From the IMG/VR virus record IMGVR_UViG_3300038365_000169: DNA of 64,000 nt; one strand, given 5' to 3'. The position numbers and the translations under genes were made by a program. Below are positions 1 through 26,416 of the stretch, in pieces. Position 1 is the stretch's first letter. Every line of letters begins with the position of its first letter. The stretch is from an uncultured virus (IMG/VR IMGVR_UViG_3300038365_000169) (lineage: Duplodnaviria > Heunggongvirae > Uroviricota > Caudoviricetes). The notes below the pieces were generated by a model. That model was not told where the DNA came from. It did no database searches and was given only the letters and a program-made list of their open reading frames with translations.

Positions 1-804
1 CGTCTTGCCCTAACTGTGGACGGCCACCTCACCTACTGCACCGCATCAGAGGAGAGAATCGGCAAGGGCCGATGCAACCATGTCACCCATCAAAGGGACA
101 ACGAAAGCCAGCAGCAGTTTGTGGAGCGCATCAGCATACTGGAGGCTGATGACGTAAAGCGCGTCAAGCAGGAGCAGAAGGCTGTTGCCAAGAGCAACCA
201 GGGCATACTCAGCTGGATCAAAAACCTAGGCTCCCCAAGGGTTCCAGCATCACTGGAGGCTGACAAGAGCCTTTCCGAGCAGGAGAGGCGTCTTGCAGCT
301 GACCGCTTATTGGCCGCCAAGTTCGAAAGGCTGGACCTGGAGGGCGAGGGTGAACCAGAGCCCCTGGTGGACCATGAGTCTGTGGTGATAGACATTGAGT
401 CCAGGTTTGTCAACTTCTTTTACGACGAAACGCACTATGTGCATCTGACCCATATGCGTTCCTGCGACACACCGGAGGAGAACATGGAGGCCATCAAGCA
501 GGCGGTGCAGGAGATCACACTATGGAACGAATGGGGTTTTGACAAGATTGCCGTTCAACTGCAGCTGCTGCATGGGTTCATACTTGACCCAGAGGTGCAT
601 GCCGAGATCAAGGGCATAGGGGTCGGGTTGGAGTTTGAGTACTATGACTTCAGAAACCCCGAGTTAAACAAGATTGCCGCCAAGTTTGAGGAAATAAGGG
701 ACCAACTCCCCATCATGGTGGACCATGTCACACCTGCCGCCATAGACCAGCTGCATGGCGCTCTTTTGGCTGCCGGCCTTCTGGAGCAGCTTGCGGGTCT
801 ATAG
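1..804 (+). CDS. Hypothetical protein with N-terminal Cys/His tag shared with RNAP set-2 subunits (probably 5'-partial)
   Basis: Frame is open from base 1: RLALTVDGHLTYCTASEERIGKGRCNHVTHQ, matching the N-termini of 24101..26416 and 21799..23991. Confidence 0.75.
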   Translation, partial: RLALTVDGHLTYCTASEERIGKGRCNHVTHQRDNESQQQFVERISILEADDVKRVKQEQKAVAKSNQGILSWIKNLGSPRVPASLEADKSLSEQERRLAADRLLAAKFERLDLEGEGEPEPLVDHESVVIDIESRFVNFFYDETHYVHLTHMRSCDTPEENMEAIKQAVQEITLWNEWGFDKIAVQLQLLHGFILDPEVHAEIKGIGVGLEFEYYDFRNPELNKIAAKFEEIRDQLPIMVDHVTPAAIDQLHGALLAAGLLEQLAGL

Positions 805-1053
805 CTTCATCGCTTCCTCCAGGGTGACCCCATACTCCTCCAGCAGAAACTGCTCTGCTTCGTCCATAAAGTTGTCTACTGCGTCATTTATCATGGCGTT
901 TCTGGATATGCTGGTGCCGTTAATCCTGGCAACAGCCTCCTTTATGGCGTCCAAATGTTCGATAGCATCCTCCTTTAGATAAACGGCAACCTGCTTGCTT
1001 TTGCCCTTGCGCTCCATCTCCATAAGGTTTTTCAAGCTCTTCTCCAGAACCAT
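799..1053 (-). CDS. Ribbon-helix-helix (CopG/Arc-like) DNA-binding protein
   Basis: 84 aa; KQVAVYLKEDAIEHLDAI...ISRNAMINDAV strand-helix-helix pattern. Confidence 0.55.
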   Translation of the reverse strand: MVLEKSLKNLMEMERKGKSKQVAVYLKEDAIEHLDAIKEAVARINGTSISRNAMINDAVDNFMDEAEQFLLEEYGVTLEEAMKL

Positions 1054-1205
1054 TCACCTGCCCTTCATTATTTCTTAATAGTTCATTGTATTGGCCTGAT
1101 GTTAAACGACCAATGAATGCAATATTACGTAGATTTTAACCTTATATTTGCTGATATATACCTTGCTCTGATGGTTTTAGGTGATGCTCTGACGAACCAT
1201 TTGCA

Positions 1206-2506: not shown

Positions 2507-2518
2507 GGCATGTTACCT

Positions 2519-2734: not shown

Positions 2735-2755
2735 TTCAAAAATGCACCCCTTTCA

Positions 2756-3571: not shown

Positions 3572-3610
3572 CTCTGTTCATCTCACCTCCGCTTAAAAAT
3601 AAAGCACACA

Positions 3611-4417: not shown

Positions 4418-4459
4418 GACTTAACCTCCCTTCGCTAGTGCCGCTTGGCATCATTAGCT

Positions 4460-5703: not shown

Positions 5704-6927
5704 CTAGCTCATGATCTGGTCCAACGCTGCGTTCACCTTTTGGTTCTTGTCAAATACGTCCCATTCGCTGTAAAATTCCGCTCTTTGCACGGAGTCAGTG
5801 ATGACCCCAAAGGTGGCTACAACATTGGCCTGCTCGGATAGCATGTTGTAAATGGTCTTGTTCATGGGGTTTCCAGGAAGCATCTGGGTGATGACTATGT
5901 TGAGGTGCGGAGCAATCTCGTCGTCGGGTGAAAATACATTTCTGCCCTGCTCGTCCTTAGATGATATTTCGCCCTTTAAACGCCCAATTTGCTTGGTCAC
6001 AGAGTTTACGCTCTTGATGGAGGTGGTGGTGATCAGTATGATCTTGTCAGCACACTTGTAGACGTAGCTGATGGGTCGAAGGTTTACATAGTCAATCCCC
6101 GTGTCAAATACCACCACATCATAGTTTTCGATGCAGTTGCTGATGACGTTTAACCAGAATGCATCGTCATTTATTCTGGAGTTGTTGCTGGGTGCTAGAT
6201 AGAAGTCTACGTTCTGTGGGAACGCCTTGGGCCCATGCACGCAGAACTCACGCATGGTGCGGAAGTCCTTATAGCCCTTCTGATACTCGGTATAGTACTT
6301 TCGAATGGTGGGTTGCACCTTGTGGATGGAAATGCCCACCTGGCCGTCAATGATGTCAAAGTCAATTAATGCAATCTTTTGATGGGGATGTGTTTTGGCG
6401 TACCTGTAGGTGCTGATGATGGCTGTGAAGGTCTTGCCTGTACCGCCCTTGGATGAGCCAAACACAAATACCTTAGCGCCCTGCCCGCCAGAGCTGGAGG
6501 TGGAATCCACCAAAAGGCTCTTGATTTCCTTCTCCATGTCTCCGCTGTCAACCTCATCCTGCACGCCGAACCCCATGTCGGGAATTTCGATGCGTGATGC
6601 CTGCTTTGCCTCCTGATTGCCTCCGCCCACTGATGGTGCTGCTACAGGCTGTGATGTGGGTTGCCCGGCTGCATATGTGCTCCAGTCCTGAATTCTGGCA
6701 GGATCGCACCAGTTTGGGCAGGCGCCGGTTAGGGAGAAAAATCCGATTTGTTCGTCCCCAGCCTCTGCACAGTCCATATATACATCCTCATTCATGTCAT
6801 GAATGTTGATCATCAATTTGTCATTGACGTCCAGTCCCTCCTCAGAGAAAGCCTGACGGACGAAATCATCATATGACAAATGCCTTTCATTTCTGCCCTT
6901 GACGGCATTCCTGGATACAATGATCAT
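5704..6927 (-). CDS. MinD/ParA-family ATPase (CpaE/TadZ-like pilus localisation protein)
   Basis: Deviant Walker A SSKGGTGKT, LIDFD, VVVFDTG; adjacent to CpaB-like gene. Confidence 0.75.
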   Translation of the reverse strand: MIIVSRNAVKGRNERHLSYDDFVRQAFSEEGLDVNDKLMINIHDMNEDVYMDCAEAGDEQIGFFSLTGACPNWCDPARIQDWSTYAAGQPTSQPVAAPSVGGGNQEAKQASRIEIPDMGFGVQDEVDSGDMEKEIKSLLVDSTSSSGGQGAKVFVFGSSKGGTGKTFTAIISTYRYAKTHPHQKIALIDFDIIDGQVGISIHKVQPTIRKYYTEYQKGYKDFRTMREFCVHGPKAFPQNVDFYLAPSNNSRINDDAFWLNVISNCIENYDVVVFDTGIDYVNLRPISYVYKCADKIILITTTSIKSVNSVTKQIGRLKGEISSKDEQGRNVFSPDDEIAPHLNIVITQMLPGNPMNKTIYNMLSEQANVVATFGVITDSVQRAEFYSEWDVFDKNQKVNAALDQIMS

Positions 6928-7050
6928 ATACTACCTTCCTTTCTGTATGCATTCCTTCCTGAGCCAGGAAAGATAGCTCCCTAAAATTTTCATGCTGCCT
7001 ATAAGACAGAAACCTTAGCCCAAATGAAGCTCAAGATTTAGGCAAAGCTC

Positions 7051-8088
7051 CTAGGGTGATGATGTTACAGGAGGTGACTCCTGAGGGTTGTTTTCTTCAT
7101 TCTGCTCCTGTGTGTCTAATTCGAGGTTGCTGCTAGTGGAGGGTGATGTCTGTGGTTGTTCCCACCTGTACCCGTTTTCCTCCATCCATTTCTTCTTGGC
7201 CTCTTCAAGCTTCTTTAGCTTCTCTTCGTCCAAATTGCGCACCACCTGGCCGTCATCACCAGTGATTTCCTTCACAATGCTCTGACCCTGAGCGTCCATA
7301 AGACCCTGAATTTCGGAGTATGTCATGAGGTCCAATAGCGGAGGATTCTCGTTGTTCCATACCGGTGCAAGGTTCATCCATAGCTCAAGATATTTCTGGG
7401 ATAAAACTAACTTTTGGTAGTCTGCATAGCTTAATGCGACAATATAGTATGCGTCACCAGAGTTGCTGTCATCCTCGGTGATGGCCGCTAGCATGTTGTT
7501 GTCCTCACTGGATAGGCTGGAGTCTGTCTCCAGTATCTTTACGTTGGCAAGAATCCAATATACCTGCAACCCGTCCGCTCCATATGAATGCTCGGCAACT
7601 GGCCCCAAAGCATCCTTCATTCTGTACAGTGAGTCCCCGGTGGAGGTTCCTGCTGATGACCCGGTGGTCCTCTGTACCCCTAAAATGTCCACTGTGTCAC
7701 CTGCTGTGATTAATCCGCCAACCGCCCTTTCGTTGGGCATGCTGATGGCTGTTACAATATAGTCGTCAGGTACTGACACGCCGTATACAACGTCATCCCA
7801 TGATATCATGACGTCAGTCATGTATAGAAACTGCCCTGGTTGTGCGTTAATTTTTAGCTTCTGCCCCACCATGGATGATATGTCCGTGATATAGCCGGTT
7901 GGTGTGTTCACAGGTACCTGTATGACGCTCAGCATGGATGCGTCAATGCGCTCGCCGGCACGTATCTCCTGGCTGGGAACCACAGCGTTCACCGTTCGCG
8001 TGGAGCGAACTAGGACGAAGCTGACCACGCCAAAAAGAATCGCTCCCACCAGCAGCAGGCTGATGAAAAGATAGTTCTTACGCTTCAT
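7051..8088 (-). CDS. Flp pilus assembly CpaB/RcpC-like SAF-domain protein
   Basis: N-terminal TM; SAF-like EIRAGERIDASML; AVGGLITAGDTVDILG typical of CpaB. Confidence 0.75.
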   Translation of the reverse strand: MKRKNYLFISLLLVGAILFGVVSFVLVRSTRTVNAVVPSQEIRAGERIDASMLSVIQVPVNTPTGYITDISSMVGQKLKINAQPGQFLYMTDVMISWDDVVYGVSVPDDYIVTAISMPNERAVGGLITAGDTVDILGVQRTTGSSAGTSTGDSLYRMKDALGPVAEHSYGADGLQVYWILANVKILETDSSLSSEDNNMLAAITEDDSNSGDAYYIVALSYADYQKLVLSQKYLELWMNLAPVWNNENPPLLDLMTYSEIQGLMDAQGQSIVKEITGDDGQVVRNLDEEKLKKLEEAKKKWMEENGYRWEQPQTSPSTSSNLELDTQEQNEENNPQESPPVTSSP

Positions 8089-8104
8089 TCAATAAACTCC
8101 TTCC

Positions 8105-8764
8105 CTAGGCTATAACGTCATAGCCCTTTGATGTGATGGTGATCAGGCTGCTGTAGTTGCTGCTGCCAGCATGCCAGTTAAATACACCCAATGGGTTCAT
8201 CACCTTAAACTCCACTGATACTGATATTACGGCATTTGCGGCAATTTTGGCCCCAGTCTGCCCGGAGCCAAAGTTTAGCGGTTTGCTGCTTTGAACCGTA
8301 ATTTTGTCCACTTGGACATATGGGAGTATGAACTGGTCGCCAATCATATTCAAGGTGCCGTCCCTGCCCGTAATGTCCAGTGCAAAGTATGTACCGGCAC
8401 GCAGATACCTGCTCTCCGGTATGCATACCACCTGGCCTTCCGTTAAAAATTGGCCCGGAATCTGCTCGGCATACCTGCTCTGTGGTCCCTCCTGCATCTT
8501 GCATGTGTATATCTGCGGAAATATGTAGTTTCCGGAGCCTGGATTGTAGTAGGTGTCCACAGCTACCTGATAGCCTGACTGACGCATGTTCATTTGATGG
8601 GCTATCGAGGTGGCGATGTTGCCGTATGCTATATAGGCGAGCACCATAAACAAAAAGTACAGCAGAAGCAGAAAGGTGCCAAAAATAAGCGGTAAAAGAA
8701 TGGTGGTCTCTATCGCTGTGCTGCCGTCATGTTCCTCCTTTAGAAGCTTTTTAAGATTGTTCAT
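8105..8764 (-). CDS. TadE/TadG-like pseudopilin
   Basis: EEHDG|STAIETTILLPLIF prepilin cleavage pattern with E at +5 and hydrophobic helix. Confidence 0.7.
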   Translation of the reverse strand: MNNLKKLLKEEHDGSTAIETTILLPLIFGTFLLLLYFLFMVLAYIAYGNIATSIAHQMNMRQSGYQVAVDTYYNPGSGNYIFPQIYTCKMQEGPQSRYAEQIPGQFLTEGQVVCIPESRYLRAGTYFALDITGRDGTLNMIGDQFILPYVQVDKITVQSSKPLNFGSGQTGAKIAANAVISVSVEFKVMNPLGVFNWHAGSSNYSSLITITSKGYDVIA

Positions 8765-9258
8765 AGCAACCTCCCAGCCTTCATTATTGAGGTAACACTC
8801 ACCTGCATGGACAAACCAATGCCTCCCCTTTCCAAGGAGTCATACATGTTAAAGTTTGTACCATTGGTGGGGTTGTTAACTATCCCAATGCCTCTCCAGA
8901 AGGGCGGCAAGTGATAGACAATCCTAACGGTCACGAGGTCACCATCATTCGCTATTTTAGCGGGTGACCCAGTAATGGTTGCATTAAACTCTGGAACTAT
9001 TAGATTCAGCTGGCTTTGTGCGTTGTCAACCAGCTTAGCGCCTCCCACGTTAACCCTGTAGGCGTTTGTGTCCATGCCGCCCCACCTGGCAGCCTCCGCA
9101 GCAGTGGAGGTCATCACCGTGTTCATGAATCTTTGCCCGTTCATCACCATCATGGCGAAAAGAATCAAAAAGAAAAAGGCAAACATCATCACCAGGGTGC
9201 ATAGCACCTCAAACGTTACCGCAAACCCCGCGTGCTCCTCCTGCAAAACTTTTCTCAT
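8761..9258 (-). CDS. TadE-like pseudopilin
   Basis: EEHAG|FAVTFE..., TM helix, AAEAARWGG, VTVRIVY. Confidence 0.7.
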   Translation of the reverse strand: MRKVLQEEHAGFAVTFEVLCTLVMMFAFFFLILFAMMVMNGQRFMNTVMTSTAAEAARWGGMDTNAYRVNVGGAKLVDNAQSQLNLIVPEFNATITGSPAKIANDGDLVTVRIVYHLPPFWRGIGIVNNPTNGTNFNMYDSLERGGIGLSMQVSVTSIMKAGRLL

Positions 9259-9274
9259 GCCGTCACCTCCTCAC

Positions 9275-10138
9275 CTATAGCATGTTTACAATCTGTATTA
9301 CCAATGGTACCATCAAGCATATGATGACAGTTACCATTAAAAATGGCAATGAAAAAATGGTGGCCTTGCTGCTCACCCCCGATAGTGTTTTCTCCACCGC
9401 AAGGTCCTGTGTGTTTATGATGAACTGGCGTAGAGAGTTTAACTCCTCCTCTGGAAATTCGCCAGTTTTTGACATGTTAAAGACAATCTGGGTGATCTCT
9501 CGGGGTACCGAAAATGGGTAGTACCTTTCCACATATGGGTCAATTTGGTCCGTTGACCACTTCCTGTAAAAATCGTCAAATCCCTGAATCAGCTCCAGAT
9601 TATGCGGCGCGTGCTCCTGAATGTATATTTTGGTGTTCATGAATGCCTTGGCTGGAGCGTAAAGCATGATGTTGTGCTTGATGACCCATATGAACTCGTA
9701 CATCTTGTTCCACTCAACCTCACGCTCGTCACCAATGGCCCTGTAGTAGTACATGGGGTAGTACCAGCATAAAAAGCCCAAACATATGCATAAAAAGCCA
9801 AGCTGCCAGGTCATGACAGCAAGTAGCACGGACCCTGCAACCGTAAGTGATACCAAACCGGCATAGCGTATGAACTGAAAGGTGGTTAGAGTCATCCCCC
9901 ATGGGTTCTTTGCCCTGTTGAATATCATCTCAAGCTTGCCCATGGGTATCACTGAGCCAAGCTGCTCCACTAGCTCGCTGTGGTTCCATCTGTTGATTAT
10001 GCCCTTGTACTTTTTGCTCTTCCTCTCCTCCGCCTGCTTCTCTGCAGCTCTTTGCTTCAGTATGGCGTAAAGGAGCAGGCACATGACGAACACGCAAACA
10101 AACACAAAAAGAAGCAGCATCAGCCTGTCCTTGCTCAT
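9275..10138 (-). CDS. TadC-like pilus inner-membrane platform protein
   Basis: N-terminal TM, central TM pair, C-terminal TM; position in tad cluster. Confidence 0.55.
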   Translation of the reverse strand: MSKDRLMLLLFVFVCVFVMCLLLYAILKQRAAEKQAEERKSKKYKGIINRWNHSELVEQLGSVIPMGKLEMIFNRAKNPWGMTLTTFQFIRYAGLVSLTVAGSVLLAVMTWQLGFLCICLGFLCWYYPMYYYRAIGDEREVEWNKMYEFIWVIKHNIMLYAPAKAFMNTKIYIQEHAPHNLELIQGFDDFYRKWSTDQIDPYVERYYPFSVPREITQIVFNMSKTGEFPEEELNSLRQFIINTQDLAVEKTLSGVSSKATIFSLPFLMVTVIICLMVPLVIQIVNML

Positions 10139-10156
10139 TCCCTCAACCTCCTCTCC

Positions 10157-11008
10157 TTAAAATATGGTCTTGACGGTGTCCTTCTGCAGCTTGTAGATCA
10201 AAAATTTGAATAGGCCGAAAAGACCTAAAACCAGCGTGGCAACTATATAGCCTCCAAACCCCATCCAAAAGCTGTAGGTCTGCCCGAATGAAATCGCAAT
10301 CAATATCGGAACTCCAAAATAGTAGCTGAGCATGATGGGCTTGATTTCGCCAATTCTGGCCATAAAGCTGTTGTAATAAACCTGCTTCTGCGCGTAGTCC
10401 TTGGATAGCTCGTTCAGAATGTAGGTGTAGTCATTTATGCCCTTTTCCTCATTATATTTTGCTATGTCATAAATGTCCACTATCTGCCTTAAATGGGTCT
10501 CAAGCTTGTACTCTGGATCGAACCGATGTTCGTAAAACTCTGCAAGCTCAACATCCCTAGAGTACTCTATGTACCCAAGAAGTGACTGGTCCGCAGAGTT
10601 GCCGCTGCTGATGTGCGGCACAAAATAGTTGATAAAGTTTACAATGCGGCTGATGTTCGTGATGCCGCTCTCGTATATGATCTTTCTGTATGAGTCCTCG
10701 GCTAGCAGAATGATTAGCACTGCGCCAAACGCTAGAATGGTTAAGCCTCGCAGTGTTAAGAAGCTTAACGCCAGCAGGGTGGCAACCACCACCCTCTCCA
10801 CGTATATCACCGCTGTGCCGTTCTCCGGCCTTAGATGAAGCTTTTCCAGCAGCAGATGCTCAAAGAAAAGAAGCTTCATGTCGCTCTGGCGGTTCTCTGT
10901 GATGATGATGTCCAGCCGCTTGCGCTTCTCCCAGCCGCTCAGAGCTAGGAAAACAACCACAAAATAGGTTAATATGGCAATAATTAGCATTACTGTGGTA
11001 AGATTCAT
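10157..11008 (-). CDS. TadB-like pilus inner-membrane platform protein
   Basis: TM pattern; ISSGNSADQSL resembles the TadB L-x-x-G-x-S motif; two C-terminal TMs. Confidence 0.55.
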   Translation of the reverse strand: MNLTTVMLIIAILTYFVVVFLALSGWEKRKRLDIIITENRQSDMKLLFFEHLLLEKLHLRPENGTAVIYVERVVVATLLALSFLTLRGLTILAFGAVLIILLAEDSYRKIIYESGITNISRIVNFINYFVPHISSGNSADQSLLGYIEYSRDVELAEFYEHRFDPEYKLETHLRQIVDIYDIAKYNEEKGINDYTYILNELSKDYAQKQVYYNSFMARIGEIKPIMLSYYFGVPILIAISFGQTYSFWMGFGGYIVATLVLGLFGLFKFLIYKLQKDTVKTIF

Positions 11009-13884: not shown

Positions 13885-13901
13885 TCATTCTCCTCCTTTC
13901 T

Positions 13902-13920
13902 CCCTTATATAAAACAAATT
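13902..13920 (-). promoter_or_regulatory. Conserved upstream motif AATTTGTTTTATATAAGGG
   Basis: Directly upstream of the sbcD RBS. Confidence 0.45.
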
Positions 13921-18505: not shown

Positions 18506-18518
18506 ATGGGTGCTCCCT

Positions 18519-18537
18519 CCCTTAAATTAAACAGGTA
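18519..18537 (-). promoter_or_regulatory. Conserved upstream motif TACCTGTTTAATTTAAGGG
   Basis: Heads the exonuclease-RNase H-primase-SbcC operon. Confidence 0.5.
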
Positions 18538-20577: not shown

Positions 20578-20587
20578 CTCTCACTCT

Positions 20588-21721
20588 TTAGTTCATATTT
20601 CCAATTGGTTTGCCAGGATCGCTGGCATCATTAGGATTGTCTCCAATATCAACTCCGCCGCCCTCATCCTTCACGTAGCCGTAGCCGGGAACGTAGATGT
20701 AGCCGGGTTTGTCACCCTCTGGGCCCTTTTCAACCGTATCCTTGTCGGAAGGCTTGTACTCGGGTTTGGCGGGCTGCACGGGTGCGGGCTTTGATGGGGT
20801 TGTGTTGGCAGGTGGCTGGGTCGGTGTAGGTGTTTCCTTTACCACCGGAGGTACCTCCTGAGGTCTTACGATGTCAAGCACCCTGTACTCATTGTTGATG
20901 TTGCCGATTAAGGCTTCATACTTAAGATTGTTCAGGGTGAACTTTACAACAAAGTTTACCTCAATCTTTAGGTCCTTGTTCGCAGCAAACTCCCTGTTGT
21001 TTCCAGCGTCAATGCTCCAGCCGGAAAGCTGGTTCACATCAGCGCTGTAGAGTCCGTATGCAACAAACCTCTGCAGAAGCAGATCCCCGCTGCGATACAC
21101 CCCAACAAGCTCGTTTTGGTAGAAAAGGTCCGTTCCGATGGAGCCTGCCACGTCATCAAACTTCAGCTCCGTTGCCTTCACCTGCTTGGTGGCCTCGTCA
21201 TATTGGTCCAAAGGGCTGGTTTTGCCGTCAGGTCCCAGAAAGACGCTTTTGATGTCCACTGCATTTTTGTCCGCATGCTCCAGAGCCTCGAGGACCTCCT
21301 TTAGCTGCTCGCCGGAGTGCTCCCTATTCAGCCCCTTGTCCAGCTCCTGCTTGGCATACTTGACCGTGTTCTTCACCAGCTCAATTAGGCTTTTCTCGTC
21401 AGTTTTGATGGTGGTGTAGCTTACAACCTCCTGTACAGGGTCGTTCTCGGGGGTGCTTCCCTCCACCGGAATCTGCTCCAGCTCGTTCCCTTCGTCCTGC
21501 TGGTTGACATCCTTAACCATGCCGGGCTGCTCACCACTCTGGCTCTGGTTGGCTCCGTCGGGGCCACCGGCGAACATGGCACCGATGCCTCCGTTGGTGA
21601 GCCCCACAAAAAGGGCGATAGCCACCACAACCAGCAAGCAGGAGAGTCCAATGATTAGATACTTTTTGTTGATCTTCTCCCAAAAGCTAACGTTTGGGTT
21701 CTTGTTGTCCACAATCTTCAT
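20588..21721 (-). CDS. Membrane-anchored protein with Pro-rich linker and DUF6550-like C-terminus
   Basis: N-terminal TM; PTPTQPP linker; GYIYVPGYGYVKDEGGG...IGNM. Confidence 0.55.
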   Translation of the reverse strand: MKIVDNKNPNVSFWEKINKKYLIIGLSCLLVVVAIALFVGLTNGGIGAMFAGGPDGANQSQSGEQPGMVKDVNQQDEGNELEQIPVEGSTPENDPVQEVVSYTTIKTDEKSLIELVKNTVKYAKQELDKGLNREHSGEQLKEVLEALEHADKNAVDIKSVFLGPDGKTSPLDQYDEATKQVKATELKFDDVAGSIGTDLFYQNELVGVYRSGDLLLQRFVAYGLYSADVNQLSGWSIDAGNNREFAANKDLKIEVNFVVKFTLNNLKYEALIGNINNEYRVLDIVRPQEVPPVVKETPTPTQPPANTTPSKPAPVQPAKPEYKPSDKDTVEKGPEGDKPGYIYVPGYGYVKDEGGGVDIGDNPNDASDPGKPIGNMN

Positions 21722-21798
21722 AACTATTCCTCCTTATGCTGTTTGTTATGTTAAAACGGCCCCTATTGCACCATGAAGTGGCAGAGGACCCGTGTCCA

Positions 21799-23991
21799 TT
21801 AGTTTATTATTTGGTTTGCTGCATCCGTGTCAAGCCTTTGCTTGACGGGTCTGGTTAGGGTGCCATATCCGGAGCTGAGCTCCACAGCTTTGAATATGTT
21901 GTTCGCATTCCCAACGGCACCTATGGAAACAACATCAGCCCTCTCGCCCTCCTCCACTGGACGCAGCCCGTTCTTGTCCCTCTTGTAGGAGGTCATCTTC
22001 TTCGCTATCATCTGCAGGTTGAAATCATCCTGCTTGATGTTGGATTCCTCATACTGCCTCTTTAACCCCTCGTACAGAATCTTTCGCATCTCCTCCGTGG
22101 TGTGTGCCTCTCGCATCTCCTGCACTATCGGGCTGGTGCCCCATCCGTCCAGTGTGGCCATGATGATGGCTGCGGAGCTCTGCTTGCTCATGGATGCCAT
22201 GGTGCCGGTGTTGTGGGAAAGAAATGGGCCCACGTCATACACCCCGGTGTTGGTGGTGATGCATCTAACCCTGATGGGTTCGGCGCCAAACCTTTCAATG
22301 AACTCCAGTGGAACATGGGCGCCATATGGTGTGGCAATGTCCACCTCATGACCCTGGTTGACAGCCTCCATTAGCTCCTCTGCACATACCCAGCTGTCAT
22401 CCTCACCTGCCCCCACATCATTGCGGATCTCCTTGCTGACCTCAAACTGACCGTTCATCCTTTGGCCGTTTTTGTCATAGACATCTGCCATCACCAGATG
22501 GGTGTCAGAGCAGACAAGCTCAGCGCCAGATGCTACCATTCTGTAGCCAACCCTGAGGTCCCAGTCTGTTATGTCTAGAACCAGTGCACCGTTTGGGAAC
22601 TGGTCACCAAGCTCCAGCTCGGACCATGAGATGGTTAACGTTTTGCCCTTTCTGCTGATGTCAACCTCCTGATTCTCCCATATGGGGTGCTTCAGCTCCA
22701 TGCTGGCCTGCGTTAGGCCCTCTGAAAGGTTGGTGCTGATGACACCTCCAACCAGCTGGCCCTCCCTTACCACCTCCCCACCCTTGGTCATATGAGCGCA
22801 ATGAACGCATACATGACCGTTGGGAAGCTTGCAGTGCATGGCGTCCACATAGGGGCCACCGCAGTCAGACATCACCTGTGTGTCAGAAACTGCATAGAAA
22901 AGCTTTCTGGCCGTGTTGTGATGCACCATACCGTTGGTCTCGTAGAACCCGGTGTCGGTGCTGATGCAGCGAACAACCTCAACCCCAGCGTCCACAACGT
23001 CAAGTAGCTCCCTTTGCGTGCTGAGAAGAATTTTGGCCCCATGCTGATGCATGAATAAAATGTCCTCCGCGCACACCCAGTGGTTGTCGTCCTCGCCTAT
23101 GGCCTCACGTGCTCTCTTGCTGGCGGCTAGGTTCTCCACCCTCTCGCCGGCAATGATGATGTCGGCTAGAACCAGATGGTCATATGAAACCGTAACGGGA
23201 AGGCAGTCCATTACCTTTAGGGTCACGCACTGCTTCTCCTGCCAGTCACGTATCTCCTCCACGACAGAGCCGTCCTCAAACTGGTCCCCAACGTTTATGT
23301 CGGACCAAAATACGCTCCCAAGCTGTCCGTCCTCCAAAATGCCCACCTGGCTGTTCCTTGATATGCAGTAACCAGGTTTGCTGGTGCCGACACCCTTGGT
23401 GATCATGGCGATGCGTGCGTAGTACTGCTTGGCAAAGTACTCCCTTTCGGTTAAACCCTGCGCATAGCTGTGCTTTACGTCCACCATTTCGCCGTTATGT
23501 GTGGGAGTTTGGCCCACCTTGTCAAACATCTGGGTGATGGCGGATGTGCTGCCGCCCACACCGTACTTGTGCAGGTTGGTGAAGTATAACTTGTTTTTAA
23601 CATTTGTGTCCTCATATTCCTCCTCCCGGATGGGTAATGAGAACACAGGTGCGGCGTTAAAACCGATCTTGGATATTTCGTCAATCTGCTCAGGTGAGAG
23701 ATCTGCCATGACCTCCCTAAAGTTTTCCTTGGTAACCTTGCAGCCTGCAATTTCGTCAATTTGCTTCGCCAGCTGGTCTACCTCCTTCTGCGTGATCTCC
23801 CTGGCTACAGCAGCAGAGTCAAAAGTTCCGTCATCATGAGCTCTTTCCCCAATGCGTTTGACGAAATCCTCAGGGCTCTCACCAGCTTCCTGATGGGCAA
23901 CATGGTTGCACCTGCCATGACCCCGTAGCTCGGGAGGAGAGGTGCAGTAGGTCAGCTCGCCGTTAACGTTCAACGCTAAGGTTTTTTTCAT
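21799..23991 (-). CDS. RNA polymerase beta'-like C-terminal subunit (set 2) with N-terminal Cys/His tag and two mini-inteins
   Basis: SYAQGLTEREYF...AR...TSKPGY^TARKL (bridge helix); CVHC; GVISTNLSEGLTQASMELKH^TG (trigger loop); about 420 aa after splicing. Confidence 0.85.
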   Translation of the reverse strand: MKKTLALNVNGELTYCTSPPELRGHGRCNHVAHQEAGESPEDFVKRIGERAHDDGTFDSAAVAREITQKEVDQLAKQIDEIAGCKVTKENFREVMADLSPEQIDEISKIGFNAAPVFSLPIREEEYEDTNVKNKLYFTNLHKYGVGGSTSAITQMFDKVGQTPTHNGEMVDVKHSYAQGLTEREYFAKQYYARIAMITKGVGTSKPGYCISRNSQVGILEDGQLGSVFWSDINVGDQFEDGSVVEEIRDWQEKQCVTLKVMDCLPVTVSYDHLVLADIIIAGERVENLAASKRAREAIGEDDNHWVCAEDILFMHQHGAKILLSTQRELLDVVDAGVEVVRCISTDTGFYETNGMVHHNTARKLFYAVSDTQVMSDCGGPYVDAMHCKLPNGHVCVHCAHMTKGGEVVREGQLVGGVISTNLSEGLTQASMELKHPIWENQEVDISRKGKTLTISWSELELGDQFPNGALVLDITDWDLRVGYRMVASGAELVCSDTHLVMADVYDKNGQRMNGQFEVSKEIRNDVGAGEDDSWVCAEELMEAVNQGHEVDIATPYGAHVPLEFIERFGAEPIRVRCITTNTGVYDVGPFLSHNTGTMASMSKQSSAAIIMATLDGWGTSPIVQEMREAHTTEEMRKILYEGLKRQYEESNIKQDDFNLQMIAKKMTSYKRDKNGLRPVEEGERADVVSIGAVGNANNIFKAVELSSGYGTLTRPVKQRLDTDAANQIIN
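22210..22686 (-). mobile_element. Mini-intein 2 (159 aa, Pro1 start) in beta' trigger loop
   Basis: Starts PIWENQEV; block B CSDTHLV; ends VRCITTNTGVYDVGPFLSHN then Thr; removal restores MELKH-TG. Confidence 0.82.
22915..23367 (-). mobile_element. Mini-intein 1 (151 aa) in beta' bridge helix
   Basis: Starts CISRNSQV; block B VSYDHLV; ends VRCISTDTGFYETNGMVHHN then Thr; removal restores GY-TARKL; no endonuclease domain. Confidence 0.88.
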
Positions 23992-24100
23992 GCTTTATTG
24001 CACCTTCCTTTCCTAATGCTACCCTCATATGAAGGTTTGCATGAACAATACTCCTGTTTATAATGTTATATTTTACGTTCATAGATGATTCCCTTTCGCA

Positions 24101-26416
24101 CTAGTTCCAGTTTACACCGGTCATATCGACGCCTATGGAATGAAGCAGAGAGTTTAACTTCTGATGTGAGTCATAGGCCTCCTGGTGCCTTAAATAGTTG
24201 AGAATTTTGAGCCTGTCTGCGTCCGTAGATAGCAGAATAGCCTCCATTTCGCCCAATCGAACGCCCTCATACTCCTTGGTCCCGGAAAGCTCGTCTGCAT
24301 GTGAGCTCAGTGTTTTCTCGGCTATATGGTTCAACCTCATGACATACTCCACACCCGCTGTTGCTTCCACCTTCTTGCCGTTGGCAACCACTGTGCTGGT
24401 GCGGTTTATGCTGGGCTTGCCGTCAGAGTCTACATGAAGACCAACCTTGGCCGCTCCCTCATTGCATTCAAGCACCTGGCCAAGATTCTTCCTGCCAACC
24501 ACCCCAAGAGGGGTCATCACGATCTCTGCGGGTACTAACTTGCCGGTGCTTTCGTCCAAAATATGTGGCATCTCCTTGTCGGGTACCACCCTTGCCACCA
24601 CGCTTTTGCCGCCATGACGGTTGCTTAGCTTGTCGCCAACGGACATGGCATAGACGGTTTCCACCTCAAATGAGTCCTCTCCGACGCTCTTTACCACACC
24701 GCCGTACTTGACCTCGGTGCCGCCAATTTGCATCTTGCGCTCCAAACGTTGTCCAACCTTAAGAATGCCTAGATCCCTTTGGTCAAAACACCTGTACTGC
24801 TGAACTTGAACCGTGCCCATCTTGGCAGCAGCTGACTCAGAAATTTTAACCGCATCCTCAAAGCAGTCCTTGTCTGAGGTGTATGCCACCCTTAGGTTGG
24901 TTCCAATCTTGGCGCCCCTGATTTTCTCCCAGGCAGGTGTGGTCACTATTGGGTCCTCGCCACCCACTATCGGGCAGGCTTGGGTTAGATGCGCACAGGC
25001 CATGTTGGCACGTGATGGGTCGTCATGAAGCTTGTATGGAATGAAGTCGGATGGTGAAAGTGTGTCACCCTCTGGCTTCCTGTGAAGAAACCTGTCCTTT
25101 CCAATGTAGCCGCCAGATGCGCATGCCGTTAAGCCGACATTTTTGCCGCTGGATGCTACTAATGGGTCTATAATGCCCTCATGGCTGGGATGTGGAAGGC
25201 GAAGCTCATATGGAGCGCTGTCCTTGCTGTACCCGCCACGTCCGGTTAAGGAAATCTTCTGTGCCTGTGTGAGCGCAGAAATGGGGTTTAGGCTTTCGGC
25301 ATTTTGAACGTTGCTTCTGCCGACAAGGTCCTTTTTGATGTTTTCCGTTAGGTTTCTTTGGTAGAACAGTGGAAGTGTCTCCTCCAGCTGTTGCTCCGTA
25401 TACTCACCCTTGGCCTGGGGCTCGTTAACAACATTTCCCGCCTCACGAACCCTTCTTTGCTTCTCAAGATTTGTGCGGAATGTAACCCCCATACGGCGCA
25501 TTTGAAGCGCTATTTGCTCCTGAACCATGTCCTCATATCTGACCAACTGGCGCTTGCTGATGTCGCCAATTTCGTCCGGAGGAAGGCTTTTGAACTGGTC
25601 AAGATTTTCCTTTAGGTCTGGAAACCTCTCCAGAGCAACAGGGTCAATGTTGTCCAAAGCCCATATTTGGCCGCTCTCCAGGCCGGCGGTGTTTCCCGTC
25701 TTCCAGTAGTTTAAAACAGTTTCCTTAGGAACCACCTTGCCGTATATCTTTATGCCCTCAGCATCTGGATCCTTTGGTATCACCATGGCAACATGCCCGC
25801 TCTGCTGCTTGATGACAACATTCTCCGGATATGAGACCACACCTGCATTTCGCTGCTCAAGAACGGGTAAAACCCTCCATTTGCTGCCGTTGATGCTGAT
25901 GGTTCCGTCCTCCGCAACCACCGGTACCTCACCAAAGTCCACCTCATATATCTTGCCTCGAAAGCGGTACCTGGCCATTAATGCGTATGAGTTTTTGCCC
26001 TCAGTTAGTGACTGCTGGAAGTCCACCATCTCTGCCTCCTCCCATGTGCCGTCGCGCTTGCTGCCGATGACAAATGGGTTCTGAATGCTGCTGACAACCT
26101 CCTTCCAGTCTGGATCCCTTGCTATGCCGTACTCTGACACTAACTTAACGGTTAGCTCGGTGTTGTCAGGGATGGCCTTTACGGCCTTTAAGTGCTCCTC
26201 CATGCTGTACTGAAAAACCCTCTGATTCTTGGGGTTGCCAGACTCCTCGCCGTCCTGAGCGATGTCATTCTGTATGCTATCTATAAATTCATCAACGGAC
26301 TGCCCGTCCTGCTGATGGGCAACATGGTTGCATCGGCCACGCCCGCGAAGCTCTGGAGGGCTGGTGCAGTACGTTATGCGACCGTCCTCAGTTAGTGCTA
26401 ATACCTTGTTAGCCAT
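24101..26416 (-). CDS. RNA polymerase beta-like subunit (set 2) with N-terminal Cys/His tag
   Basis: NPISALTQ..ISLTGRGG, HPSHEGIIDP, HDDPSRANM...QACP, FEDAV, GDKLSNRHGGKSVV, PLGVVGRKNLGQVLE, RLNH, RLGEME. Confidence 0.9.
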   Translation of the reverse strand: MANKVLALTEDGRITYCTSPPELRGRGRCNHVAHQQDGQSVDEFIDSIQNDIAQDGEESGNPKNQRVFQYSMEEHLKAVKAIPDNTELTVKLVSEYGIARDPDWKEVVSSIQNPFVIGSKRDGTWEEAEMVDFQQSLTEGKNSYALMARYRFRGKIYEVDFGEVPVVAEDGTISINGSKWRVLPVLEQRNAGVVSYPENVVIKQQSGHVAMVIPKDPDAEGIKIYGKVVPKETVLNYWKTGNTAGLESGQIWALDNIDPVALERFPDLKENLDQFKSLPPDEIGDISKRQLVRYEDMVQEQIALQMRRMGVTFRTNLEKQRRVREAGNVVNEPQAKGEYTEQQLEETLPLFYQRNLTENIKKDLVGRSNVQNAESLNPISALTQAQKISLTGRGGYSKDSAPYELRLPHPSHEGIIDPLVASSGKNVGLTACASGGYIGKDRFLHRKPEGDTLSPSDFIPYKLHDDPSRANMACAHLTQACPIVGGEDPIVTTPAWEKIRGAKIGTNLRVAYTSDKDCFEDAVKISESAAAKMGTVQVQQYRCFDQRDLGILKVGQRLERKMQIGGTEVKYGGVVKSVGEDSFEVETVYAMSVGDKLSNRHGGKSVVARVVPDKEMPHILDESTGKLVPAEIVMTPLGVVGRKNLGQVLECNEGAAKVGLHVDSDGKPSINRTSTVVANGKKVEATAGVEYVMRLNHIAEKTLSSHADELSGTKEYEGVRLGEMEAILLSTDADRLKILNYLRHQEAYDSHQKLNSLLHSIGVDMTGVNWN

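What the first reader, a model, noticed from the sequence alone, without database searches (positions are those of the whole stretch)
1..26416. Shared N-terminal Cys/His tag on both set-2 RNAP subunits and an unrelated protein: candidate delivery or assembly signal
Seen: three otherwise unrelated proteins begin with the same module of about 45 aa: LALTEDGRITYCTSPPELRGRGRCNHVAHQQDGQSVDEFIDSI (beta, 26416), LALNVNGELTYCTSPPELRGHGRCNHVAHQEAGESPEDFVKRI (beta'C, 23991) and LALTVDGHLTYCTASEERIGKGRCNHVTHQRDNESQQQFVERI (base 1). The consensus C-x11-C-x-H-x2-H suggests zinc binding. Set-1 subunits lack it, and the tagged RNAP genes lie directly downstream of the relaxase-like and VirD4-like genes. Inference: the tag marks proteins for co-transfer into the recipient (or packaging), so that a pre-made RNAP starts early transcription. 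This would be a conjugative analogue of a virion RNAP.
Basis: partly seen in the sequence, partly recalled or inferred. Interest (0 to 1): 0.95.

Follow-up and report, generated by a model that had tools for sequence, protein, structure and literature searches.

The report
Shared zinc tag on plasmid polymerase
A previously undescribed 50-residue zinc-binding label sits at the very start of one of two RNA polymerases, and of many unrelated enzymes, encoded by giant plasmid-like elements from fermentation microbiomes; it most likely addresses these proteins to the element's DNA-transfer machine, but that has not been shown.

Summary
Set-2 RNAP beta (24101-26416, -), set-2 beta'C (21799-23991, -) and an unrelated 267-aa protein (1-804, +) start with the same ~50-aa module, C-x11-C-x-H-x2-H. 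Set-1 RNAP lacks it. The module matches nothing in Pfam, PHROGs or the PDB.

A profile search found 344 cluster representatives at E<=0.001. Among the best 150, the module starts within the first 10 residues in 148. The rest of the protein falls into at least 44 unrelated groups.

The surroundings look like a Gram-positive conjugative giant plasmid, not a tailed phage. A VirD4-type coupling protein lies directly upstream, with Tad/VirB11-like genes nearby. Distant complete relatives carry VirB4 and sortases but no capsid or portal.

Best reading (0.4): an address label read by the transfer apparatus, so that a ready-made polymerase and effectors enter the recipient with the DNA. Binding and transfer are untested. 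An in-cell docking module or a particle-packaging signal remain open.

The parts
26267..26416 (-). N-terminal CCHH tag (residues 1-50) of set-2 RNAP beta
   Evidence: Translation. HMM 110 bits. AF2 model with pLDDT 85: strands 5-9, 14-17 and 31-34, helix 41-56.
24101..26416 (-). Set-2 RNAP beta subunit (771 aa), tagged
   Evidence: Pfam RNA_pol_Rpb2_6 at 7.4e-13 and Rpb2_3 at 4.1e-08. Tagged orthologs at 37-49% identity.
23842..23991 (-). N-terminal CCHH tag of set-2 beta'C
   Evidence: Translation. HMM 109 bits.
21799..23991 (-). Set-2 RNAP beta' C-terminal half (730 aa), tagged, with two intein-like insertions (aa 210-361 and 437-597)
   Evidence: The 441-aa ortholog P0004 without the insertions aligns in three blocks. 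Tagged orthologs carry Rpb1_5 (for example P0051, 6.8e-15). The window protein itself is weak on Rpb1_5 (E 0.25).
1..141 (+). N-terminal CCHH tag of the third carrier (5' cut by the window edge)
   Evidence: Translation. HMM 106 bits. Ortholog start seen in L018.
1..804 (+). Tagged protein of unknown function (P0003, 267 aa seen)
   Evidence: No Pfam, PHROG or NCBIfam hit. Orthologs P0046 (61%) and L018 (59-68%). Weaker tagged paralogs in tandem arrays in L003, L004, L009 and L014.
26471..28258 (-). VirD4/TraD-type coupling protein (T4CP), directly upstream of tagged beta
   Evidence: TrwB_AAD_bind 41.7 bits (cut-off 20.5) and TraG-D_C 29.3 bits (cut-off 22). NCBIfam TraD and VirD4-like hits below their cut-offs. 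Two N-terminal hydrophobic segments. Invariant Walker A G-x2-G-S-G-K.
28266..29267 (-). Conserved 333-aa partner of the T4CP; predicted winged-helix domain plus a PD-(D/E)XK-like C-terminal part
   Evidence: 50 homologs, none with a Pfam domain. Also found next to the T4CP in G002. AF2 pLDDT 87.8. Winged-helix matches at VIA Z 6-7.2 over residues 31-182. Weak Foldseek rows for FokI, BspD6I and SfsA, E 5e-3 to 4e-2.
42413..47242 (-). Set-1 RNAP, untagged: beta 44987-47242, beta'N 43499-44965 (NADVDGD), beta'C 42413-43480
   Evidence: Pfam Rpb2_6 and Rpb1_2. Sequences read. No tag by HMM. Set-1 beta is 27% identical to set-2 beta over 291 aligned positions of the C-terminal core. Set 1 is the set shared with G002.
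26446..26458 (-). Exact 13-mer AAATATAACATAA, 30 nt upstream of the beta start codon
   Evidence: One of only two exact matches to AAATATAACATWA in the window.
24061..24073 (-). Exact 13-mer AAATATAACATTA, 70 nt upstream of the beta'C start codon
   Evidence: The second of the two exact matches.
5704..11008 (-). Tad-like pilus or secretion cluster: TadZ/ParA-like, CpaB, TadE-like, and two polytopic membrane proteins
   Evidence: AAA_31, RcpC/SAF and a weak TadE hit. TIGR03177 pilus_cpaB at 8e-15. Hydrophobic segments.
47261..49373 (-). Two VirB11/TadA-like secretion ATPases
   Evidence: T2SSE at 7e-15 and 1.9e-22. Best NCBIfam hits are VirB11 and TrbB, below cut-off.

Best explanation
The module is a new, autonomous, roughly 50-residue zinc-knuckle domain: a beta-hairpin, a C...C-x-H-x2-H site, a third strand and a helix, followed by a variable polar linker. 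It serves as a common address label.

It is fused to the extreme N-terminus of otherwise unrelated soluble proteins of a lineage of giant plasmid-like elements. These elements are conjugation-type, encode their own RNA polymerases, and come from Gram-positive-type hosts in fermentation microbiomes.

The most likely receptor is the element's own transfer apparatus, meaning the VirD4-type coupling protein encoded directly upstream, or an adaptor of it. Each tagged polypeptide would then be exported into the recipient cell together with the DNA. The tagged set includes the three pieces of the second RNA polymerase, SF2 helicases, Fic and HipA-like enzymes and repeat proteins. The delivered polymerase would reassemble and transcribe the first genes, and the untagged set-1 polymerase would take over later.

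Shown: the domain, its strict position, the diversity of its carriers, its restriction to set 2, and the conjugation-type context. Inferred: zinc binding, the receptor, export, and the early-transcription role.
For: (1) Promiscuous label. 344 representatives match at E<=0.001 and 225 at E<=1e-10. 148 of the best 150 carry the tag within their first 10 residues. The cargo of the 125 carriers of at least 140 aa, compared from residue 61 on, falls into 44 BLASTP clusters, 29 of them singletons.

(2) Cargo types. Of 135 carriers scanned, beta'N 14, beta'C 5, beta 3, SF2 helicase 6, HEAT 13, DUF3232 6, HipA_C 3, Fic 2, DUF4116 2, AbiEii 1, BRCT 1, and 77 with no family. This mix resembles what phages and conjugative elements send ahead with their DNA (PMC5512222, abstract passage).

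(3) Every RNAP subunit carries its own tag. That is expected if each polypeptide is handled singly. Set 1 is equally split but carries none.

(4) Carriers are soluble. Only 3 of 144 have a hydrophobic 19-residue window.

(5) Tagged genes form tandem arrays with gaps of a few bases (L003, L004, L006, L009).

(6) The tag is better conserved than its cargo. For beta, window versus L002, the tag is 69% identical and the whole protein 45%. dN/dS between the window copies is 0.15-0.38.

(7) Context. The T4CP lies directly upstream. Tad/VirB11-like genes are present. The relative L002 has tagged beta next to an AAA_10 VirB4-like ATPase and a weak TcpE hit. Distant relatives G001-G004 have VirB4-like AAA_10 in 4 of 4, and Phage_capsid and Phage_portal in 0 of 4. 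G002 also has sortases, LPXTG-type adhesins and FtsK-like ATPases.

(8) The same cargo family occurs with and without the tag. Window ORF 32381-33127 is untagged, while P0116, P0124 and L015:3139-4065 are tagged.

(9) Precedent from the literature. A conserved folded domain on diverse T4SS effectors binds VirD4 (PMC8740702, abstract). Conjugative T4SSs move plasmid proteins into recipients (PMC8406263, start of abstract in the listing). An N-terminal T4SS signal has been reported in Legionella (PMC10100965, title in the listing).
Against: - No tool result shows binding to the coupling protein, export or zinc.
- The best-known T4SS signals (XVIPCD, BID) are C-terminal.
- A paper title in the listing says conjugative T4SS substrates must unfold (PMC5826034). 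A zinc-stabilised domain and 730-770-aa polymerase pieces would therefore have to unfold, refold and reassemble in the recipient.
- The four relatives with a 35-40% identical T4CP and a VirB4-like ATPase (G001-G004) have no tagged proteins. Each has only one stand-alone ORF of about 95 aa with a similar C-x2-C...C-x-H core. This transfer system therefore works without the tag.
- No relaxase, no VirB4 and no set-2 beta'N were found inside this 64-kb window. The conjugative nature of this particular element rests partly on relatives.
- The tagged gene in L015 has no T4SS gene within its 10-kb contig.
- Some cargo (helicase, BRCT, HEAT) would fit an intracellular nucleic-acid machine equally well.
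- The single NlpC/P60 carrier (P0045) begins like a beta'N and may be a chimeric assembly.
Confidence: 0.4

Rival explanations
1. In-cell docking or tethering module. The tag binds one common hub inside the cell that made it, such as a scaffold protein, the element's DNA or a replication-transcription factory. This collects the split set-2 polymerase, helicases and accessory proteins in one place. Nothing is transferred.
For: Small zinc knuckles commonly mediate protein-protein or nucleic-acid contacts (general knowledge). All pieces of a split enzyme carry the tag. Helicase, BRCT and HEAT cargo fit a nucleic-acid machine. Relatives with the same T4CP need no tag. Those relatives keep a stand-alone ~95-aa protein with a similar core, which could be a relic of such a hub system.
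Against: Set-1 polymerase is equally split and manages without a tag. Fic, HipA-like and AbiEii-type enzymes, and at least 44 unrelated cargo groups, are hard to place in one complex. The strict position at residue 1-10 in 148 of 150 carriers is not required for a docking domain.
Confidence: 0.25
2. Particle-packaging signal. The element is really a virus-like agent with a capsid that the searches did not recognise. The tag loads proteins into the particle, and the FtsK/HerA-type ATPases act as the packaging motor. This would be the direct analogue of the virion RNA polymerase of jumbo phages.
For: Two split multisubunit RNAP sets, one of them virion-borne, are the hallmark of some jumbo phages (PMC7598289, start of abstract in the listing). 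IMG/VR files the relatives of the T4CP as viral, two of them with terminal repeats. N-terminal address peptides load ejection proteins into phage heads (listing titles and abstract starts of PMC5694885 and PMC7411985; the mechanism itself is recalled). The replication genes are phage-like by PHROGs.
Against: No capsid, portal, sheath or true terminase hit appears among the ORFs of the window scanned with Pfam and PHROGs, nor among 131 ORFs of at least 170 aa of the complete 230-kb relative G002. Phage_capsid and Phage_portal are found in 0 of 4 relatives, while the controls ring. The VirB4-like ATPase, T4CP, sortases and adhesins point to conjugation. The tag is absent from 50,697 phage records by tblastn and from IMG/VR. 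No prohead protease or conserved cleavage motif after the tag was noticed (by eye).
Confidence: 0.15
3. Regulatory N-terminal module. The tag is a zinc- or redox-sensitive switch, a degron or a chaperone handle. It keeps potentially harmful proteins (a second polymerase, Fic, kinases) inactive or short-lived until a signal arrives.
For: Several carriers are potentially toxic to the producing cell (Fic, HipA_C, AbiEii). In the arrays no separate immunity-type genes lie between the tagged genes. Degrons typically occupy an N-terminal position (general knowledge).
Against: A folded, highly conserved 50-residue domain (pLDDT 85) is more than a degron needs. HEAT and DUF4116 repeat proteins and polymerase subunits have no obvious need for such control. 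This reading is also compatible with the delivery reading as a secondary role.
Confidence: 0.1

Closest known systems
XVIPCD domain of Xanthomonas-type T4SS effectors (X-Tfes)
   Same: A conserved, folded domain is shared by effectors with different enzymatic parts. It is recognised by the all-alpha domain of VirD4 and is needed for translocation (PMC8740702, abstract read). Here too, one conserved domain sits on many unrelated proteins of an element that encodes a VirD4-type protein.
   Different: XVIPCD is C-terminal, about 120 residues, has no Cys/His site, and serves interbacterial killing in Gram-negatives. The tag is N-terminal, about 50 residues, CCHH, comes from a Gram-positive-type element, and its cargo includes RNA polymerase. 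There is no sequence or fold relation, and binding is untested.
Fic-BID effectors (Beps) of Bartonella, derived from conjugation systems and toxin-antitoxin modules
   Same: A Fic enzyme is joined to a T4SS delivery domain that evolved in a conjugative setting (PMC5675462, title and start of abstract in the listing; the architecture itself is recalled). Two tagged Fic proteins were found here.
   Different: BID is C-terminal and unrelated in sequence, and its targets are eukaryotic cells.
Virion versus non-virion multisubunit RNA polymerases of jumbo phages (phiKZ, AR9 type)
   Same: There are two sets of split beta/beta' subunits. One is delivered with the genome for early transcription and the other is made later (PMC7598289, start of abstract in the listing).
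   Different: In phages the delivery vehicle is a capsid, and no shared Cys/His tag on the subunits is known to me (recalled, not searched in that paper). Here no capsid genes were found and the context is of T4SS type.
Polyvalent proteins of phages and conjugative elements
   Same: [quoted passage not shown]
   Different: There, many domains are strung in one giant polypeptide and cut by zincin-like peptidases. Here, many separate proteins each carry the same small tag.
Protein transfer by F-like plasmid pED208 ('conjutome')
   Same: A conjugative T4SS moves plasmid-encoded proteins (ParA, ParB, SSB, PsiB and others) into recipients (PMC8406263 and PMC11288057, starts of abstracts in the listing).
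   Different: The abstract starts seen mention no common tag domain. The proteins are small and include no polymerase.
Inocle giant plasmid-like elements of oral Streptococcus
   Same: They are giant and circular, carry VirB4 and VirD4 in all contigs, and encode sortase A, LPXTG proteins and DNA polymerase III alpha (PMC12340149, passages). The distant relative G002 shows the same feature set.
   Different: The likeness to G002 is by gene content only and was not tested by sequence. The paper's main text has 0 occurrences of 'RNA polymerase'. G002 has no tagged proteins and only one polymerase set. The window element has 48% GC against 33% and shares proteins with G002 at only 22-43% identity.
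Capsid-targeting N-terminal peptides of phage internal and ejection proteins (T4, SPN3US)
   Same: An N-terminal address on proteins that travel with the DNA (listing titles and abstract starts; the mechanism itself is recalled).
   Different: Those peptides are short, unfolded and removed by a prohead protease. No such protease or capsid was found here.

Membership tests
Multisubunit RNAP beta subunit (carrier 24101-26416) | Rpb2 domain 6 (catalytic double-psi beta-barrel region) and domain 3 | tested here: met
   PF00562 48.8 bits (cut-off 23.4) and PF04565 33.7 bits (cut-off 21).
Multisubunit RNAP beta' C-terminal half (carrier 21799-23991) | Rpb1 domain 5 region | tested here: inconclusive
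   The window protein scores only E 0.25, 11.2 bits (cut-off 28.5). Tagged orthologs reach 55.7 bits (P0051), and P0023 is 54% identical to the window protein over 385 residues. Two insertions disrupt the window copy.
Type IV coupling protein (VirD4/TraD/TrwB) for 26471-28258 | N-terminal membrane anchor, Walker-type NTPase domain, all-alpha/DNA-binding domain region | tested here: met
   Two hydrophobic segments at residues 1-19 and 53-71. Invariant G-x2-G-S-G-K. TrwB_AAD_bind and TraG-D_C above their Pfam cut-offs. NCBIfam TraD and VirD4-like models are hit only below their cut-offs.
T4SS effector delivery domain (XVIPCD/BID kind) | One conserved domain shared by effectors with unrelated functional parts | tested here: met
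   44 cargo clusters among 125 carriers; Pfam spread.
T4SS effector delivery domain (XVIPCD/BID kind) | Direct binding to the coupling protein | not testable with these tools
   Needs a pull-down, ITC or NMR. No usable computational answer was obtained (see Tried and rejected).
T4SS effector delivery domain (XVIPCD/BID kind) | Required for contact-dependent translocation into a target cell | not testable with these tools
   Needs a mating or translocation assay.
T4SS effector delivery domain (XVIPCD/BID kind) | C-terminal position of the domain | tested here: not met
   The tag starts within residues 1-10 in 148 of 150 carriers.
Classical C2H2 zinc finger or any curated Zn-binding Pfam family | Match to a curated profile; spacing C-x2-4-C-x12-H-x3-5-H (spacing recalled) | tested here: not met
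   No Pfam family covers the tag in the 3 window proteins at E<=1 or in 135 carriers at E<=1e-4. The spacing here is C-x11-C-x-H-x2-H.
   No Pfam, PHROG or NCBIfam hit. No PDB sequence relative. The model shows a winged-helix part (Z 6-7.2) and only weak nuclease-type rows for FokI, BspD6I and SfsA (E 5e-3 to 4e-2). Rep_trans and Relaxase families are found in 0 of 4 relatives. The Replic_Relax search rang nowhere, controls included.
Tailed phage (Caudoviricetes) as the nature of the element | HK97-type major capsid protein, portal, large terminase | tested here: not met
   None among the window ORFs scanned. Only P-loop-level 'terminase' rows appear, for T4CP, VirB4-like and FtsK-like ATPases. 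PF05065 and PF04860 are found in 0 of 4 relatives while the controls ring. Unrecognised capsid folds are not excluded.
Gram-positive conjugative T4SS element | VirB4-type ATPase plus T4CP plus cell-wall hydrolase plus relaxase | tested here: inconclusive
   The T4CP is in the window. A VirB4-like AAA_10 is seen only in relatives: L002 and 4 of 4 of G001-G004. Hydrolases are present in G002. No relaxase was recognised anywhere. The rest of the window's element was not available.
Intein (insertions in beta'C) | Insertion absent from orthologs, N-terminal Cys/Ser, C-terminal His-Asn followed by Cys/Ser/Thr | tested here: inconclusive
   Both insertions are absent from P0004 and are homologous to each other (31%, E 2e-22). 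Both end H-N before T. The first starts with C and the second with P. No intein or Hint Pfam hit at E<=1.

The most novel reading that the evidence does not exclude
A conjugation-type (T4SS) apparatus of a giant Gram-positive plasmid-like element exports a complete second RNA polymerase into the recipient cell. It does so piece by piece, together with helicases and Fic- and kinase-type effectors. Every polypeptide is addressed by the same N-terminal zinc-knuckle tag. This would be a conjugative counterpart of the virion RNA polymerase of jumbo phages, and the first folded, N-terminal, domain-type substrate signal of a monoderm T4SS.
Probability: 0.3. Interest if true: 0.95.

Novelty: new variant of a known kind. 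Interest (0 to 1): 0.8.

Why it matters
If the label is a transfer signal, it would show that conjugative elements can make themselves independent of the host's transcription machinery, as some phages do, by sending a polymerase ahead.

It would also give a simple sequence rule for listing the whole 'injected proteome' of a class of uncultivated giant plasmids. At least 344 protein clusters carry the label, and among the best 150, 77 of the 135 carriers scanned have no known family. That would open substrate recognition in Gram-positive T4SSs to study, for which I know of no domain-type signal (recalled).

Even if the transfer reading is wrong, the tag is a large, well-defined, unannotated domain family. 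Its carriers mark a functional set: the second polymerase plus accessory and effector proteins. It also defines a lineage of polymerase-encoding giant plasmid-like elements that no isolate genome in the searched collection contains.

Tried and rejected
**Complex prediction.** T4CP (48-row alignment) plus Zn plus tag (52-row alignment) gave 'no answer', score 0.00 in both runs, and the controls were not folded. I take it as neither for nor against binding.

**Fold searches with the tag model.**
- Foldseek against the PDB: best E 1.2.
- VIA-align wide: best Z 3.5, ribosomal L9-type rows.
- BFVD viral library: best E 0.29.
- No usable match in any of them.

**PDB sequence search.** The tag profile gave 0 hits at E<=10. 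The 333-aa protein's profile gave only a chance-level row.

**ESM Atlas.** The tag's best score was 0.79, to N-terminal RpoB fragments. The P0003 cargo's best score was 0.79, with restriction-endonuclease-like rows at 0.76-0.78. All are below the level that shuffled proteins reach, so I did not use them.

**Collections with no relative.**
- The tag: no match in phage records, plasmid records, IMG/VR or species-representative genomes.
- The beta profile: none in the genomes. Its one IMG/VR hit (L021) is an unrelated fused beta-beta' phage polymerase without a tag.
- DNA of 21000-27000: no megablast match in phage records.

**Weak loci.** L019 and L020 (E 2e-4 and 3e-4; the match is internal in L019) were not counted as carriers.

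**Other dead ends.**
- Sigma-70-like promoters are not enriched around the tagged genes: 14 found against 16.8 expected.
- No tRNA and no Rfam family in the window.
- The large gap upstream of the untagged ORF 32381-33127 holds no tag remnant.
- Earlier scan notes held nothing on this genome or this sequence. The two notes returned by words concern other elements.
- A conserved cleavage motif after the tag was looked for by eye only and not found.

Full report
**1. The observation**

Beta runs 24101-26416 on the - strand and is 771 aa, with Rpb2 domains 6 and 3. Beta'C runs 21799-23991 on the - strand and is 730 aa. The third protein runs 1-804 on the + strand; 267 aa are visible and its 5' end is cut by the window edge.

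An ortholog of the third protein in locus L018 begins M-E-K-R-LALT, so only about three residues are missing. A regex and an HMM over all six frames find these three copies and no fourth in the 64 kb.

The set-1 subunits are beta 44987-47242, beta'N 43499-44965 (with NADVDGD) and beta'C 42413-43480. None carries the tag. Set-1 beta and set-2 beta are distant paralogs, 27% identical over 291 aligned positions of the C-terminal core.

The similarity is not a recent duplication. Between the three DNA copies synonymous sites are saturated: dS is 1.1-1.9, or not computable for one pair. dN is 0.29-0.44.

**2. The module is a large, unannotated domain family**

No Pfam or PHROG family covers it. A first word-based search found it on a 441-aa beta'C without insertions (P0004) and on a 485-aa beta'N with DFDGD (P0005).

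I built a profile of five tags (A1) and ran it over 1.84 billion cluster representatives. It returned 344 proteins at E<=0.001 and 225 at E<=1e-10. The lengths of the best 150 range from 49 to 785 aa.

Among the best 150:
- The tag starts within the first ten residues in 148. The exceptions look like mis-called starts or a read-through of two genes.
- C-x(9-13)-C-x-H-x2-H is present in 147, with x11 spacing in 146.

In a 52-row alignment C29, H31 and F44 are invariant. L6, A7, G12, T15, Y16, C17, G25, G27, R28, N30 and H34 are at least 90% conserved.

AlphaFold2 on that alignment gives a confident small fold, mean pLDDT 85. It has a hairpin (strands 5-9 and 14-17), a third strand (31-34) and a helix (41-56), then a low-confidence linker.

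No solved or viral predicted structure resembles it: Foldseek PDB best E 1.2, VIA-align best Z 3.5, BFVD best E 0.29. No PDB sequence matches the profile. Zinc binding is inferred from the four conserved ligands and was not measured.

**3. What carries it**

I scanned 135 of the 150 best representatives against Pfam, leaving out the 15 shorter than 100 aa.

| Pfam family | Carriers |
|---|---|
| Rpb1_2 (beta'N) | 14 |
| HEAT | 13 |
| SF2 helicase | 6 |
| DUF3232 | 6 |
| Rpb1_5 (beta'C) | 5 |
| Rpb2_6 (beta) | 3 |
| HipA_C | 3 |
| Fic | 2 |
| DUF4116 | 2 |
| NlpC/P60 | 1 |
| BRCT | 1 |
| AbiEii | 1 |
| DUF6745 | 1 |
| no family | 77 |

The NlpC/P60 protein (P0045) starts like a beta'N and may be a chimeric assembly.

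I then scanned 77 proteins against PHROGs: 76 of the 77 without a Pfam family (P0011 left out), plus P0003. Of these, 71 had no hit, and none of the six hits covered the tag.

After cutting off the first 60 residues, the 125 carriers of at least 140 aa fall into 44 single-linkage BLASTP clusters, 29 of them singletons. Only 3 of 144 carriers of at least 80 aa have a hydrophobic segment.

In metagenome loci the tagged genes often sit in tandem arrays with gaps of a few bases: three in L004, three in L006, two each in L003 and L009. Many of these are paralogs of the window's third protein.

One cargo family occurs both ways. Window ORF 32381-33127 is untagged, while its relatives P0116, P0124 and L015:3139-4065 are tagged. 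No tag remnant lies upstream of the window copy.

**4. What kind of element this is**

Nearly all genes in the window lie on the - strand. Beside the two polymerase sets, the window encodes the following:
- A replication kit: split Pol III alpha, two DnaB-like helicases, primase, RNase H, SbcCD and a two-subunit type II topoisomerase.
- A VirD4/TraD-type coupling protein at 26471-28258, directly upstream of tagged beta. It has two N-terminal membrane segments, a Walker A motif, and TrwB_AAD_bind and TraG-D_C above their Pfam cut-offs.
- Two VirB11/TadA-like ATPases at 47261-49373.
- A Tad-like set: CpaB, a TadE-like protein, a TadZ-like protein, two polytopic membrane proteins and a weak prepilin-peptidase match.

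No capsid, portal, sheath or genuine terminase was found. No relaxase and no VirB4 were found in these 64 kb.

The rest of the element could not be read because no genome is held. No isolate genome in the species-representative collection holds the tag or the tagged beta. The relative L002 has a tagged beta followed by RecA, a weak TcpE hit and a VirB4-like AAA_10 ATPase at 105.6 bits.

The coupling protein has 35-40% identical relatives on IMG/VR records of 117-332 kb, two of them with terminal repeats. I read one in full: G002, 229,868 bases, 33% GC, 207 of 209 called ORFs on one strand.

G002 shares with the window the T4CP, the 333-aa neighbour, the TadZ-like protein, the set-1 polymerase pieces, the primase and a nuclease. 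It also has the following:
- A VirB4-like ATPase and two FtsK-like ATPases.
- Two sortases.
- SpaA, Cna_B and GbpC-type adhesins.
- An NlpC/P60 protein and a lysozyme-type protein.
- No capsid, portal or tail-sheath hit among 131 ORFs of at least 170 aa.

Across four such records:
- AAA_10 is present in 4 of 4.
- Phage_capsid and Phage_portal are present in 0 of 4, with the controls ringing.
- Each has one polymerase beta.
- None has a tagged protein. Each has only one stand-alone ORF of about 95 aa whose C-x2-C...C-x-H core resembles the tag. Profile E is 3e-5 to 7e-4, and the G002 ORF is 57% identical to the P0003 tag over 23 residues.

In gene content G002 resembles the 'Inocle' giant plasmid-like elements, which have VirB4 and VirD4 in all contigs plus sortase A, LPXTG proteins and Pol III alpha (PMC12340149, passages). 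I did not test that likeness by sequence. That paper's main text does not mention RNA polymerase.

So set 1 belongs to the shared backbone. Set 2 and the tag together are an addition in the window's lineage.

**5. The neighbour called 'relaxase-like'**

The 333-aa protein at 28266-29267 is a conserved companion of the T4CP. It has 50 homologs at 38-99% identity and none has a Pfam domain.

Its model is confident, pLDDT 87.8. Residues 31-182 align with winged-helix DNA-binding proteins at Z 6-7.2, a middling level. Foldseek gives only weak rows for FokI, the BspD6I nicking enzyme, SfsA and Can2, at E 5e-3 to 4e-2. By eye the C-terminus carries a D...E-x-E...K pattern.

It is not a recognisable relaxase. 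A DNA-binding nuclease beside the coupling protein could still do the nicking, but that is inference only. Rep_trans and Relaxase families are absent from the four relatives. The Replic_Relax search rang nowhere, controls included.

**6. How it most likely works**

The tag behaves as an address label. It is strictly N-terminal, autonomous and followed by a linker. It is better conserved than its cargo: for beta, 69% in the tag against 45% overall between the window and L002. It is attached to dozens of unrelated soluble proteins.

Every piece of one split polymerase has its own copy, while the other, equally split polymerase has none. That fits handling of single polypeptides better than assembly.

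The cargo list (polymerase, helicases, Fic, HipA-like kinases, a nucleotidyltransferase and repeat proteins) resembles what phages and conjugative elements are thought to send in with their DNA (PMC5512222). The context is of T4SS type.

The closest worked example is the XVIPCD domain, which is shared by diverse effectors and bound by the all-alpha domain of VirD4 (PMC8740702, abstract). Conjugative transfer of plasmid proteins is documented for an F-like plasmid (PMC8406263, start of abstract in the listing).

I therefore rank the readings as follows:

| Reading | Confidence |
|---|---|
| Transfer label read by the T4CP or an adaptor | 0.4 |
| In-cell docking or tethering module | 0.25 |
| Particle-packaging signal | 0.15 |
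| Regulatory handle | 0.1 |

**7. What speaks against the transfer reading**

- Nothing here shows binding, export or zinc.
- The best-known T4SS signals are C-terminal.
- Substrates of a conjugative T4SS must unfold (PMC5826034, title in the listing). That is demanding for a zinc domain and for 730-770-aa subunits that must reassemble afterwards.
- Relatives with the same coupling protein have no tags.
- The window lacks VirB4, a relaxase and the set-2 beta'N.
- One tagged gene (L015) lies among ordinary-looking genes, including a GGDEF regulator and YdjM.

**8. Novelty**

The domain family is new to Pfam, PHROGs and the PDB. My literature searches found no description of polymerase-encoding conjugative elements or of such a tag: six full-text searches and passages of four papers. 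Supplements were not read.

As a kind, a shared delivery or recognition domain on diverse proteins is known. This one would be a new variant: N-terminal, zinc-type, from a monoderm, and with polymerase among its cargo. If transfer is proven, the system as a whole would be without precedent.

Noticed in passing
window 21799-23991 (-), protein residues 210-361 and 437-597: Set-2 beta'C carries two homologous insertions of about 152 and 161 aa (31% identical to each other, E 2e-22). They are absent from the ortholog P0004. Both end in His-Asn before Thr. The first starts with Cys and the second with Pro. They look like mini-inteins, the second perhaps of a non-canonical class or inactive. Pfam shows no intein hit.
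   Followed up: partly
window 26446-26458 and 24061-24073 (-): The 13-mer AAATATAACATWA has exactly two perfect matches in 64 kb. Both lie in the short gaps just upstream of the two tagged polymerase genes. With up to 2 mismatches there are 10 matches against 2.6 expected, and 0 of 100 shuffles reach 10. It is a candidate class-specific promoter. AT-rich boxes of similar look precede tagged polymerase genes in L001, L010 and L016 (by eye).
   Followed up: partly
window 13901-13912, 18518-18529, 37540-37551, 54893-54904, 60496-60507 and others (-): The motif TAATATAAGGGA has 9 matches with up to 2 mismatches, all on the coding (-) strand. Three exact matches lie in intergenic gaps upstream of a separate Shine-Dalgarno sequence. 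The expectation is 4.4, and 1 of 100 shuffles reaches 9. It is a possible second promoter class.
   Followed up: partly
window 5704-11008, 33564-34172, 47261-49373 (-): A Tad-like pilus or secretion gene set lies scattered among the replication genes: TadZ-like, CpaB, TadE-like, two polytopic membrane proteins, a weak prepilin-peptidase match and two VirB11/TadA-like ATPases.
   Followed up: partly
window 56451-57605 (-), 58917-60467 (-), 61394-62281 (+): Three genes carry DUF3440 or PAPS-reductase-type domains. They lie beside two CoA-transferase subunit genes (55038-56405) and an O6-methylguanine-DNA methyltransferase gene (63323-63841).
   Followed up: no
window 35409-38852 (-): DNA polymerase III alpha is split into two adjacent genes. 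One carries PHP plus the NTPase start (37578-38852) and the other the finger domain onward (35409-37481).
   Followed up: no
window 32381-33127 (-); L015:3139-4065; P0116, P0124: The same cargo family occurs without the tag in the window and with the tag in relatives (27-30% identity over 130-211 aa). This shows gain or loss of the module.
   Followed up: yes
G002:C1:112996-113313 (L034), G003 (L041), G004 (L042), G001 (L043): Each of four distant giant relatives has one stand-alone ORF of about 95 aa whose N-terminal C-x2-C-x(11)-C-x-H core resembles the tag. It lies 10-19 kb upstream of the T4CP. It is a possible ancestor or partner of the tag.
   Followed up: partly
G002 (L029-L040): This is a complete 229,868-base record that IMG/VR files as viral. 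It has sortases, LPXTG-type adhesins, a VirB4-like ATPase, a T4CP, FtsK-like ATPases, one multisubunit RNAP, many HNH endonucleases and transposases, and no capsid or portal hit. It looks like a giant conjugative plasmid of the Inocle kind.
   Followed up: partly
window 18598-21721 (-): Directly downstream of tagged beta'C lie two genes without family hits. One encodes a 377-aa membrane-anchored protein with a proline-rich tail. The other encodes a 659-aa protein with a signal-peptide-like start.
   Followed up: no
window 21500-29500: This stretch is held near-identically by DNA runs labelled fermentation metagenome or metagenome, from three studies. Two of the samples may be the source of this DNA.
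   Followed up: no
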